A stretch of 64,000 nucleotides of DNA, from positions 38,689 through 102,688 of the forward strand of contig CAZKCG010000014.1 of the NCBI GenBank assembly GCA_964551445.1, written 5' to 3'. The DNA comes from an uncultured bacterium. Its GTDB lineage: Bacteria; Muiribacteriota; UBA9980. A program made the translations under genes and the position numbers. Below are positions 40,921-41,478 of the stretch, one piece after another (the first letter of the stretch is position 1; every line of letters starts with the position of its first letter). The notes beneath the pieces were generated by a model that ran no database searches, had not been told where the DNA came from, and was given only the letters and a program-made list of their open reading frames with translations.

Positions 40921-41190
40921 TCACTCTTCTTTCCGATACGGCCGCTTCAGCGGGCTTTAATATCAGGGCATTATTTCTTTTAATCAGCAGGCTTTTTATG
41001 CTACCCATTCCATAATAACTTAACCCGATGAAATTATATACAAATCCATGTTTATTGTCAATTTAAAGCGCAGCAAGTAATATAATTTTATGACCCGACT
41101 AATCGATTCGTTAAGAAATGATCGTTCAGACCAAAATATAGTTAAATTCTTCGTCCACCCTATCCCGGAAGTTCCACTAACCTTCCAATT

Positions 41191-41223
41191 CAAGAATTCA
41201 GCGATAATATCGCTGAATTCTTG
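41191..41223. promoter_or_regulatory. Perfect 15-bp-arm palindrome CAAGAATTCAGCGAT-aat-ATCGCTGAATTCTTG; candidate operator
   Basis: Read directly. A GTTCCACTA motif (shared with the 12.1-kb repeats) lies 20 bp upstream at 41171-41179. Confidence 0.5.
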
Positions 41224-41231
41224 ATCGCCCC

Positions 41232-41261
41232 GCGCCCGCGAAGTTCGCGCTTCGCGGGCGC
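41232..41261. other. GC-rich 12-bp-stem hairpin (GCGCCCGCGAAG-ttcgcg-CTTCGCGGGCGC)
   Basis: Read directly. Not followed by a T-tract on either strand, so it is not a classic terminator. It is followed by a purine-rich imperfect hairpin at about 41300-41345. Confidence 0.5.
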
Positions 41262-41478
41262 AAAAACAACAAAAGCGGAAATAACAAAGGGATAGAGAGG
41301 GTTTTTAAGGGAGAGGAAGGGGCATTGCTCTTTCTTCTCCCTTATCCCGCCCCCGAAGACCCATAACGCGAAAAAAATATCATCCGTGTTTCAACGCCGG
41401 CGGAAGCGGCTGAAATATCAATAAAGTTAACGCAAAGACGCATTATATTATAATAAACTAAAGGCAAAACAATAATAG

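What the first reader, a model, noticed from the sequence alone, without database searches (positions are those of the whole stretch)
41171..41345. Unusually structured intergenic region upstream of the MVP gene: perfect 15-bp-arm palindrome, 12-bp GC hairpin, purine-rich hairpin
Within about 170 bp there are three elements. (i) CAAGAATTCAGCGAT-aat-ATCGCTGAATTCTTG, 33 bp with perfect dyad symmetry. (ii) GCGCCCGCGAAG-ttcgcg-CTTCGCGGGCGC, a very stable hairpin not followed by a U-tract. (iii) GGGAGAGGAAG…CUUUCUUCUCCC, an imperfect stem with G-U pairs. Perfect long palindromes are rare by chance and typically mark operator sites for dimeric repressors or recombination and attachment sites. Their position in the divergent promoter region of the MVP gene makes them candidate regulators of the vault-like locus. 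A small structured RNA is also possible.
Basis: seen in the sequence. Interest (0 to 1): 0.5.

Follow-up and report, generated by a model that had tools for sequence, protein, structure and literature searches.

The report
Orphan hairpin cluster upstream of bacterial MVP
A real and statistically exceptional cluster of DNA/RNA hairpins sits between two back-to-back promoters in front of a bacterial major-vault-protein gene, but it has no second copy or relative in anything I could search and is missing from the closest relatives retrieved, so it looks like a lineage-specific insert rather than a conserved switch for the vault gene.

Summary
The palindrome is a perfect 17-1-17 (41190-41224). It is followed by a perfect 12-6-12 GC hairpin (41232-41261) and a 19-1-19 purine/pyrimidine hairpin (41306-41344) whose three non-Watson-Crick positions are all G.U on the + strand. 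Only five perfect hairpins of at least 10 bp exist in the 64 kb, and two are here. Shuffled sequence never exceeded 12 bp.

The hairpins form a 51% GC module (41148-41360) inside AT-rich DNA. The module lies between the -35 boxes of two divergent sigma-70-type promoters, 118-330 bp upstream of each. None of the hairpins is a terminator, and this genome's real terminators carry U-tracts. No transcription factor gene lies nearby. There is no Rfam match, and no other copy in the window, in plasmids, phages or viral contigs. For the palindrome there was also no copy in genome or metagenome scans.

MVP relatives at 69-71% identity keep the proximal MVP promoter but lack any such structure. Their neighbouring genes also differ.

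Best reading, at low confidence (0.35): a solo or relic palindromic insertion that may be transcribed on the + strand. Rivals are a genuine + strand structured RNA and a DNA-level operator or cruciform. The closest relative's intergenic DNA could not be fetched, so the question stays open.

The parts
41190..41224 (.). Perfect 35-bp palindrome TCAAGAATTCAGCGATA-A-TATCGCTGAATTCTTGA (17-1-17). It contains two GAATTC sub-dyads whose centres are 21 bp apart and an AT-rich centre.
   Evidence: The ssDNA hairpin is -17 kcal/mol, z -7.4. Half-site search finds no other copy in the window.
41232..41261 (.). Perfect GC-rich hairpin GCGCCCGCGAAG-TTCGCG-CTTCGCGGGCGC. On the + strand an A-tract follows it (AAAAACAACAAAAG), so on the - strand the T-tract precedes it. 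It is not a terminator in either direction.
   Evidence: (no terminator-like site found). The same stem in unrelated 56-66% GC metagenome contigs is followed by TTTTGTTTT in most cases, the terminator arrangement.
41306..41344 (+). Purine-arm / pyrimidine-arm hairpin, 19-1-19. It has 16 Watson-Crick pairs plus 3 G.U on the + strand, which are A.C mismatches on the - strand.
   Evidence: ssDNA fold: + strand -11.3 kcal/mol (z -3.3), - strand -7.7 (z -1.65).
41167..41186 (+). Small hairpin GGAAG-N10-CTTCC just left of the palindrome. Weak, and could be chance.
   Evidence: z -2.2.
41160..41295 (+). Predicted long-range helix CTATCCC (41160-41166) / GGGATAG (41289-41295). It closes a three-hairpin junction. 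A 7-bp helix at this distance is expected about once by chance.
   Evidence: (I11).
41148..41360 (+). The whole hairpin-dense module. It is bounded by the predicted outer helix TCTTCG (41148-41153) / CGAAGA (41354-41359). GC is 51%, against 34% and 33% in the flanks.
41262..41288 (+). A-rich unpaired linker (AAAAACAACAAAAGCGGAAATAACAAA) between the GC hairpin and the purine tracts.
41033..41061 (-). Consensus sigma-70-type promoter (TTGACA-17-TATAAT, 12/12) for the divergent membrane-protein gene 40177-40914.
41479..41507 (+). Proximal MVP promoter-like site (TTGACA-17-TAACAT), 96 bp before the ATG at 41575. An equivalent site lies 122-134 bp before the ATG in three relatives.
41427..41454 (+). 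Second promoter-like site (TTAACG-16-TATAAT), just right of the module.
41055..41083 (+). Weak promoter-like site (TTGTCA-17-TAATAT, 9/12) pointing into the module. It is the only candidate start for a + strand transcript of the hairpins.
41078..41455 (.). Possible outer limits of an insertion. AT-rich imperfect inverted repeats TAATATAATTTTATG / CATTATATTATAATA (15 nt, 80%) bound it. Removing this 378 bp would bring the two -35 boxes to about 40 bp apart, against 59-91 bp start to start in relatives. No target-site duplication is seen.
   Evidence: (I4). Weak, because AT-rich matches are easy by chance.
41575..44091 (+). MVP homologue, 838 aa (context).
   Evidence: (MVP_shoulder, Vault_3).
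40177..40914 (-). Divergent gene: 245-aa predicted three-TM membrane protein with no family match. It is not a regulator (context).

Best explanation
The 41148-41360 module is a lineage-specific piece of hairpin-rich DNA with no other detectable copy. It has been lodged between two back-to-back promoters. In kind it is most likely a solo or relic copy of a small non-autonomous palindromic element, like a MITE or a REP/BIME cluster. It is not a conserved control region of the vault gene.

Shown:
- The hairpins are real and far beyond chance.
- They form a GC island in AT-rich promoter DNA.
- They lie outside both core promoters and outside the mRNAs that start at the proximal promoters.
- They are not terminators.
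- No regulator gene was detected nearby.
- The retrievable MVP relatives keep the promoter but have nothing like the module.

Inferred:
- The module arrived by insertion or rearrangement. The two -35 boxes are 418 bp apart here against 59-91 bp in relatives.
- If it does anything, it acts as folded nucleic acid on the + strand. All four non-Watson-Crick positions in the hairpins are G.U on that strand. One route is read-through from the weak promoter at 41055-41083 into the MVP leader. Another is hairpin or cruciform extrusion in the negatively supercoiled zone between divergent promoters.
For: - Statistics of the hairpins.
- GC island of 51% against 33-34% flanks.
- Promoter positions.
- Promoter spacing in relatives: 620 to 711 in L002 and 5810 to 5869 in L003, against 41061 to 41479 here. 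Relative intergenic regions are only 174-269 bp.
- No structure upstream of MVP in relatives: best 80-nt window z is -0.9 to -2.3, against -8 to -9 here.
- Every other exceptionally structured intergenic window in the 64 kb sits immediately downstream of a gene's stop codon on that gene's strand. Those I folded are terminators with U-tracts, plus one intercistronic hairpin. This module is the only exception.
- Perfect arms of 17 and 12 bp suggest recent origin rather than a long-maintained RNA stem or operator. This is my inference.
- No match to any Rfam family.
Against: - No second copy of any of the three hairpins was found in the window, in plasmids or phages, or in viral contigs.
- The palindrome has no copy in JGI metagenomes or in 185,579 species-representative genomes. 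That genome scan returned only three chance 10-bp-arm hits in unrelated MAGs.
- A repeat family therefore has no positive evidence.
- No clear terminal inverted repeats and no target-site duplication.
- No GTAG or CGTC REP tag beside any hairpin.
- No transposase gene was detected among the window ORFs scanned against NCBIfam or Pfam. Three ORFs of at least 150 aa (9350-10228, 10382-10858, 10884-11366) were not scanned.
- The relatives used for the 'insertion' argument are distant and have different neighbouring genes on both sides of MVP. The comparison is therefore not strictly position-for-position.
Confidence: 0.35

Rival explanations
1. A genuine structured RNA on the + strand. It would be either a small RNA or a long distal-promoter leader of the MVP mRNA. 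The transcript would start near 41090 from the promoter-like site at 41055-41083. It would fold into three long hairpins held in a closed junction, with an A-rich single-stranded linker.
For: - + strand fold of -110.9 kcal/mol, z = -10.2, with a nested architecture.
- All three mismatches of the 19-bp hairpin, and the apical pair of the GC hairpin, are G.U on + and A.C on -.
- A GC island in an AT-rich spacer is a classic signature of an RNA gene. This is established knowledge.
- A promoter-like site in the right orientation.
Against: - No intrinsic terminator on either strand, whereas this genome's own terminators are canonical hairpin-plus-U-tract.
- No Rfam family matches. The only hits are sub-threshold eukaryotic miRNA models on the purine hairpin.
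- No homologue anywhere, so no covariation can be tested.
- Absent from MVP relatives.
- Stems of 17 and 12 bp with no wobble or bulge are unusual for a maintained RNA.
- The - strand MFE is almost the same, -107.5.
- The long-range helices are short enough to be chance.
- The promoter is only 9/12, and it arises partly because TTGTCAA reads as a -35 box on both strands.
Confidence: 0.25
2. DNA-level regulatory element. The palindromes would bind dimeric or oligomeric proteins as upstream operators or activator sites. Alternatively they would extrude as cruciforms under the negative supercoiling generated between divergent promoters, and so couple or insulate the two promoters.
For: - Perfect dyad symmetry over 35 bp. 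Three sub-dyads (GAATTC, centre, GAATTC) are spaced 10.5 bp apart, so they lie on one face of the helix (my reading of the sequence).
- An AT-rich centre and AT-rich surroundings favour cruciform extrusion.
- The site lies between a 12/12 consensus promoter and the MVP promoter.
- There is a precedent for a regulatory intergenic cruciform attenuated by a wHTH protein, HlyU at exsBA in Vibrio parahaemolyticus (PMC10325908).
- Inverted repeats with cruciform potential are enriched in E. coli promoter regions (PMC6060812).
Against: - The palindrome centre is about 150 bp from the nearer -35 box and about 270 bp from the MVP -35 box.
- No transcription factor gene was detected within about 10 kb.
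- The three palindromes are unrelated in sequence, so three different proteins would be needed.
- Not conserved where the MVP promoter is conserved.
- The sigma-54 -24/-12 look-alike at 41314-41329 has 3 mismatches and is at chance level, 124 window hits against 181 expected.
- The wobble-only pattern of the third hairpin is not expected for a protein site.
Confidence: 0.2
3. Chance or an assembly artefact of the metagenome-assembled contig.
For: - The source appears to be an NCBI MAG contig of 102,688 bp.
- Contigs of the 81-82% relatives break 55-104 bp upstream of the membrane-protein gene.
- In the JGI relative, MVP is called only as a 116-aa fragment.
- Together these suggest the region is hard to assemble.
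Against: - Chance is excluded for the 17-bp arms.
- Fold-back chimeras give long arms and shared flanks. Here there are three short, different hairpins with unique flanks on both sides.
- Intact promoters and genes lie on either side.
- No vector or plasmid similarity.
Confidence: 0.05

Closest known systems
REP / BIME elements (repetitive extragenic palindromes and their mosaic clusters)
   Same: Palindromes of 20-40 bp lie side by side in a non-coding region and can fold as DNA or RNA hairpins. Neighbouring units may fold into larger structures (PMC3733652, PMC2817692).
   Different: REPs are high-copy, usually more than 100 per genome. They carry a GTAG or CGTC tag at one end, and they lie mostly downstream of ORFs between convergent or co-directional genes (PMC3733652, PMC2817692). 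Here no second copy was found, no tag flanks any hairpin, and the site lies between divergent genes.
MITEs and other small non-autonomous insertion elements (e.g. ERIC, Correia, MITEAba12)
   Same: A segment of a few hundred bp, rich in structure, sits in an intergenic spacer. It looks inserted, with GC content and spacing unlike the surroundings.
   Different: There are no convincing terminal inverted repeats, no target-site duplication, no other copies and no parent IS in the data available. The module is several local hairpins, not one long TIR-based fold.
Regulatory intergenic cruciform (HlyU-attenuated cruciform at exsBA, Vibrio parahaemolyticus; PMC10325908)
   Same: A perfect or near-perfect inverted repeat lies in an intergenic regulatory region next to promoters, where supercoiling could drive extrusion.
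   Different: That system has a known binding protein and a cryptic promoter inside the structure. Here no binding protein or dependent promoter is known, and nothing is conserved.
Intrinsic (Rho-independent) terminators
   Same: A GC-rich perfect stem. The identical 12-bp stem occurs in unrelated high-GC organisms, in most cases followed by a TTTTGTTTT-type tract, the terminator arrangement.
   Different: Here the T-tract is on the wrong side on both strands, and the hairpin is not at the 3' end of any gene. The genome's real terminators all have U-tracts.
Eukaryotic vault RNA (Rfam RF00006)
   Same: A compact structured element lies physically next to an MVP gene.
   Different: No Rfam match. 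No similar element lies next to MVP in four distinct related loci. Eukaryotic vault RNA is bound through TEP1 (my knowledge), and no TROVE-domain match came up among the window ORFs I scanned against Pfam. The preprint on bacterial MVP homologues mentions vault RNA only as a eukaryotic component (10.1101/872010).

Membership tests
REP/BIME | Many copies per genome (tens to hundreds) | tested here: inconclusive
   No other copy in the 64 kb window. The scan of 185,579 species genomes with the 20-nt palindrome core gave only 3 unrelated chance hits. It is not known whether the rest of the source genome was in that collection.
REP/BIME | Unpaired GTAG or CGTC tag at one end of the palindrome (PMC3733652) | tested here: not met
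   The flanks are cttccaat/tcgccccg, atcgcccc/aaaaacaa and agggtttt/tcccgccc. The only CGTC is at 41152, not next to a hairpin.
REP/BIME | Located downstream of ORFs, between convergent or co-directional genes | tested here: not met
   The module lies between divergent genes, upstream of both promoters.
MITE | Terminal inverted repeats flanked by a target-site duplication | tested here: inconclusive
   The only candidate is an AT-rich 15-nt, 80% inverted repeat at 41078-41092 / 41441-41455, with no flanking duplication.
MITE | Multiple copies and a related autonomous IS | not testable with these tools
   The source genome outside the window could not be read. There are no copies in the window. 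No transposase family matched among the window ORFs scanned, though three ORFs of at least 150 aa were not scanned.
Intrinsic terminator | GC-rich hairpin followed by a U-tract at the 3' end of a transcription unit | tested here: not met
   No terminator-like site in 40700-41800. An A-tract follows the GC hairpin on + and a T-tract precedes it on -. Both flanking genes point away from the module.
Operator of a divergently encoded or neighbouring regulator | Dyad-symmetric site overlapping or adjoining the core promoter | tested here: not met
   The dyad symmetry is present, but the palindrome centre (41207) is 146 bp from the - strand -35 box and 272 bp from the MVP -35 box.
Operator of a divergently encoded or neighbouring regulator | Cognate DNA-binding protein encoded nearby | tested here: not met
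   The divergent gene is a 3-TM membrane protein with no family match. No HTH or other regulator was detected among the neighbouring ORFs scanned, several of which matched no family.
Operator of a divergently encoded or neighbouring regulator | Site conserved in orthologous promoter regions | tested here: not met
   Four distinct related MVP loci, L002, L003, L004 (with near-duplicate contigs L005-L007) and L008, have no palindrome or structure upstream. Three of them keep a detectable proximal promoter. The closest relative (93% aa on the neighbouring gene) could not be fetched.
Any described RNA family (Rfam 15), including vault RNA, 6S, Y RNA and riboswitches | Covariance-model match at or near the gathering score | tested here: not met
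   Only a tRNA at 2877-2949 passes the gathering score in the window. A permissive search of 40850-41650 gives only miRNA models at 16-22 bits, against gathering scores of 70-105.
Vault RNA analogue | Structured RNA gene recurrently linked to MVP genes | tested here: not met
   No exceptional structure upstream of MVP in relatives. The only strong signal in the three downstream spacers checked is a terminator-like structure in L008.
Chromosomal replication origin | Cluster of DnaA boxes in a long spacer at a GC-skew minimum | tested here: not met
   The cumulative GC-skew minimum falls at 40-42 kb. No TTATCCACA with up to 1 mismatch lies in 40915-41574. The skew shift is explained by the purine-rich MVP coding strand.
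Sigma-54 promoter with upstream activator sites | -24 GG / -12 GC element (TGGCAC-N5-TTGCW) downstream of palindromic sites | tested here: inconclusive
   AGGAAGGGGCATTGCT at 41314-41329 has the right GG-N10-GC spacing but 3 mismatches. The window holds 124 such hits against 181 expected by chance.

The most novel reading that the evidence does not exclude
The module encodes a bacterial counterpart of a vault-associated RNA. This would be a compact multi-hairpin + strand RNA made next to the MVP gene that is packaged in, or regulates assembly of, a bacterial vault-like particle in this lineage. The evidence does not exclude it for this one lineage. The lack of any comparable element at MVP loci of relatives argues strongly against a general association.
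Probability: 0.03. Interest if true: 0.85.

Novelty: new member of a known kind. Interest (0 to 1): 0.28.

Why it matters
Bacterial MVP homologues are themselves poorly understood, and nothing is known about how they are controlled or whether they carry RNA. A conserved structured element beside one would have offered an experimental handle. The evidence here argues against that hope. The element is real but private to this lineage, and it is not linked to MVP in the relatives that could be retrieved.

The useful results are negative:
- The hairpins are not terminators.
- They are not a recognisable RNA family.
- They are not a REP by its defining features.
- They do not lie beside a detectable regulator gene.

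The report also pins down the one comparison that would settle the matter, the intergenic DNA of a named close relative.

Tried and rejected
- **Terminator.** Rejected. No U-tract on either strand and no gene ends here. The genome's real terminators are canonical.
- **Known RNA family.** Rejected.
- **Repeat within the window.** None found.
- **Copies in public collections.** The palindrome core gave 3 chance hits in unrelated MAGs and nothing in JGI metagenomes or viral contigs. The GC hairpin was absent from viral contigs. Its 10 metagenome hits are all in unrelated 56-66% GC contigs, most with a terminator-like T-tract after the stem. The purine hairpin was absent from viral contigs. The whole spacer had no match in plasmids or phages.
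- **Divergent regulator plus operator.** Rejected. The neighbouring gene is a membrane protein and no regulator was detected nearby.
- **Replication origin.** The GC-skew minimum falls here, but there are no DnaA boxes.
- **Sigma-54 promoter with upstream activator sites.** The match is at chance level.
- **Decayed gene fragment.** tblastx and blastn of the spacer against all fetched loci gave nothing beyond the designed matches.
- **Small ORFs** (44 aa at 41090-41224; 13 aa at 41325-41366 behind a purine-rich SD-like tract; 47 aa on the - strand). No family match for the 44-aa ORF and no support for any.
- **EcoRI-site avoidance.** GAATTC is not avoided, 35 observed against about 18 expected.
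- **Closer relatives through the neighbouring gene.** The 81-82% relatives' contigs end before the module. The 70-73% relatives have a different divergent neighbour and a plain 268-bp spacer.
- **The one close relative.** It is a JGI contig of 17,326 bp carrying P0127 and P0129.
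Full report
**What is there.**
- The palindrome is longer than reported. TCAAGAATTCAGCGATA-A-TATCGCTGAATTCTTGA at 41190-41224 is a perfect 17-1-17.
- It is followed after 7 bp by the perfect 12-6-12 GC hairpin at 41232-41261.
- After an A-rich linker comes a 19-1-19 hairpin at 41306-41344 with a purine arm and a pyrimidine arm. It has 16 Watson-Crick pairs. Its three remaining positions are all G.U on the + strand and A.C on the - strand.

**Is it beyond chance?** A scan of the entire window found only five perfect hairpins with stems of at least 10 bp. 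Two of them lie here, within 72 bp of each other. Twenty dinucleotide-preserving shuffles never gave a stem longer than 12 bp. As + strand RNA, 41140-41400 folds to -110.9 kcal/mol (z = -10.2). The - strand reaches nearly the same energy but a weaker z of -4.8.

**Setting.**
- The downstream gene (41575-44091) is a genuine bacterial major vault protein homologue, with MVP_shoulder at 1e-27 and Vault_3. It has thousands of homologues.
- The divergent gene (40177-40914) encodes a 245-aa protein with three predicted hydrophobic transmembrane segments (my reading of the sequence) and no family match.
- The spacer between them is 660 bp.
- A perfect-consensus promoter for the membrane-protein gene lies at 41061..41033. 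Promoter-like sites for MVP lie at 41479-41507 and 41427-41454.
- The hairpins sit between the two -35 boxes, 118-330 bp from each. That places them outside both core promoters and outside transcripts that start at the proximal promoters.
- They form a GC island, 51% for 41148-41360 against 34% and 33% in the flanks and 20-32% at the promoters.

**Not terminators.** No terminator-like site is found. The GC hairpin has an A-tract after it on the + strand, so a T-tract precedes it on the - strand. That is the wrong polarity in both directions. The same 12-bp stem occurs in ten unrelated 56-66% GC metagenome contigs, in most of them followed by a TTTTGTTTT-type tract, the terminator arrangement. 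That makes the contrast plain.

A survey of all intergenic regions of the window adds context. Every other exceptionally structured segment lies immediately downstream of a gene's stop codon on that gene's strand. Those I folded are canonical hairpin-plus-U-tract terminators, plus one intercistronic hairpin at 6894-6941. This module is the only strong structure that is not at a gene end.

**Not a known family, and not repeated where I could look.**
- Rfam gives nothing at gathering score in the spacer. A permissive search gives only sub-threshold eukaryotic miRNA models.
- No other copy of any element exists in the 64 kb.
- The spacer has no match in 72,556 plasmids or 50,697 phage records.
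- The palindrome core is absent from viral contigs and JGI metagenomes.
- In 185,579 species-representative genomes the core hits only three unrelated places with 10-12-bp arms and unrelated flanks. That scan did not return the window itself. Either the source genome is absent from the collection or the window is masked. If it is masked, the rest of the genome has no second copy of the palindrome, but I could not establish which case applies.
- REP-defining features were tested. There is no GTAG or CGTC tag, and the site lies between divergent genes rather than downstream of ORFs. Both features are not met (PMC3733652, PMC2817692).

**Relatives.** The closest full-length MVP proteins are 69-71% identical. 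Their loci (L002-L008) have upstream spacers of only 174-269 bp. L008's contig begins 139 bp before its MVP gene.
- A proximal promoter-like site lies 122-134 bp before the ATG in three of them, against 96 bp here.
- In L002 and L003 the divergent promoter's -35 box starts only 59-91 bp from the MVP one, against 418 bp here.
- None has a perfect hairpin of 9 bp or more near MVP, apart from two AT-rich 9-bp stems in L003, one of them in the promoter region.
- The best 80-nt window upstream of MVP has z of -0.9 to -2.3, against -8 to -9 here.

There is a caveat. These relatives have different genes on both sides of MVP, so MVP has moved or its neighbours have been replaced. The comparison shows that the module is not part of the conserved MVP promoter unit. 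It does not give a clean empty site.

Homologues of the membrane protein were also followed. The 81-82% relatives sit on short contigs that end 55-104 bp upstream of the gene, before the module. The 70-73% relatives have a secreted-protein gene as divergent neighbour and a plain AT-rich 268-bp spacer.

One truly close relative exists. It is a JGI/IMG contig of 17,326 bp with a 93% identical membrane protein (P0127) and a 99% identical C-terminal MVP fragment (P0129). I found it only after the contig look-ups and metagenome scans were exhausted. Neither metagenome scan hit a contig of that length. At that divergence an exact 24-base match could be lost by drift alone, so this is weak evidence.

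**How it most likely works.** The operator reading is poorly supported.
- No regulator gene was detected nearby.
- The sites are far from both promoters.
- The three palindromes are unrelated to one another.
- Nothing is conserved where the promoter is conserved.

A sigma-54 promoter with upstream activator sites was considered. AGGAAGGGGCATTGCT at 41314-41329 has the right spacing, but the match is at chance level. A replication origin was considered because the cumulative GC skew has its minimum at 40-42 kb. There are no DnaA boxes, and the skew shift is due to the purine-rich MVP coding strand.

Two readings remain.

(a) A solo or relic copy of a small palindromic, non-autonomous element inserted between the promoters. 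In favour:
- The GC island.
- The excess of about 330-380 bp relative to the promoter spacing in relatives.
- Weak AT-rich inverted repeats at 41078-41092 / 41441-41455.
- The perfection of the 17- and 12-bp arms, which suggests recent origin.

Against:
- No second copy.
- No clear terminal repeats or target duplication.
- No transposase detected.

(b) A + strand structured RNA, either a small RNA or a distal leader from the weak promoter at 41055-41083. In favour:
- The strand asymmetry. All four non-Watson-Crick positions are G.U on the + strand.
- The nested fold.

Against:
- No terminator.
- No homologue.
- Stems too perfect for a long-maintained RNA.

The two readings are not exclusive, because inserted palindromic elements are often transcribed. 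I rank (a) first at 0.35, (b) at 0.25, a DNA-level operator or cruciform function at 0.20 and artefact or chance at 0.05. The remainder is unassigned.

The cruciform idea is physically reasonable. The palindrome is perfect, has an AT-rich centre, and lies in the negatively supercoiled zone between divergent promoters. There is a precedent in the HlyU-attenuated cruciform of Vibrio parahaemolyticus (PMC10325908). It is untested here.

**Comparison with known systems, and novelty.**
- It works most like an extragenic palindrome cluster or a MITE-like insert. It fails the testable REP criteria, and the MITE criteria are inconclusive.
- It resembles a regulatory cruciform or operator only in symmetry and location.
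- It is not a terminator and not a member of any Rfam family.
- The most exciting reading is a bacterial vault-associated RNA. The literature I could search does not describe one, and the preprint on bacterial MVP homologues mentions vault RNA only as a eukaryotic component (10.1101/872010). The absence of any comparable structure next to MVP in relatives puts this at about 3%.

**Verdict.** This is a real, statistically striking, orphan hairpin module of unknown and probably lineage-private significance. Interest is modest at 0.28. The decisive step is cheap: read the spacer of the named JGI relative and scan the rest of the source genome.

Noticed in passing
window 6894-6941 (- strand): A 23-bp hairpin (perfect 13-bp core, G.U-extended) with no U-tract lies in the 100-bp spacer between the chemoreceptor gene 6964-9255 and the CheA gene 4389-6863. 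It looks like an intercistronic mRNA stabiliser or processing hairpin (z about -10).
   Followed up: partly
window 52812-52855: A perfect 18-8-18 hairpin, TACATAAAAAGAGCCGCC...GGCGGCTCTTTTTATGTA, with an A-tract before and a T-tract after. It is a textbook bidirectional terminator between the convergent genes 51013-52791 and 52879-53904.
   Followed up: partly
window 13360-13383: A perfect 12-0-12 palindrome, GGTAAAATAACCGGTTATTTTACC, lies inside the coding sequence of the sigma-54-dependent activator gene 12340-14748.
   Followed up: no
window 11969-11984 (- strand): TGGCATGGTTTATGCT is a good sigma-54 -24/-12 look-alike with 2 mismatches. It lies in the 973-bp spacer just downstream of the sigma-54 activator gene and upstream of the - strand genes 10884-11366 and 10382-10858.
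   Followed up: no
JGI/IMG contig of 17,326 bp (proteins P0127, P0129): A close relative carries a 93% identical membrane protein. Its MVP is called only as a 116-aa C-terminal fragment starting at an internal Met. In that assembly the MVP gene or the spacer may be interrupted, gapped or rearranged.
   Followed up: partly
L022 1-104 and L023 1-55: Both short contigs from the 81-82% relatives of the membrane-protein gene end shortly upstream of the gene, before the region equivalent to the hairpin module. This could be low coverage, or an assembly break caused by palindromic sequence.
   Followed up: no
window 41575-44091 and loci L002-L008: The MVP gene keeps its own proximal promoter and a leader of about 60-100 nt across relatives, but the genes on both sides differ. 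Relatives have truA downstream. This window has a class-III aminotransferase. MVP therefore behaves as a single-gene unit that has changed neighbourhood.
   Followed up: partly
window 42001-44000: The MVP coding strand is strongly purine-rich, with GC skew +0.19 and AT skew +0.21. This creates a local cumulative GC-skew minimum at 40-42 kb that mimics a replication-origin signal.
   Followed up: yes
L010 4930-4983 (Flavobacteriales MAG): A chance hit of the palindrome core. It turned out to be a 12-1-12 palindrome immediately after a stop codon, followed 8 bp later by a second, unrelated 10-1-10 palindrome (AGAGTCTAGA-T-TCTAGACTCT). This is another small cluster of odd-centred palindromes.
   Followed up: no
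window 34114-39735 (- strand): A giant 1873-aa ORF whose only family hint is a weak internal type II secretion protein G-like segment (residues 754-834, E = 2e-4). It lies two genes upstream of the module.
   Followed up: no
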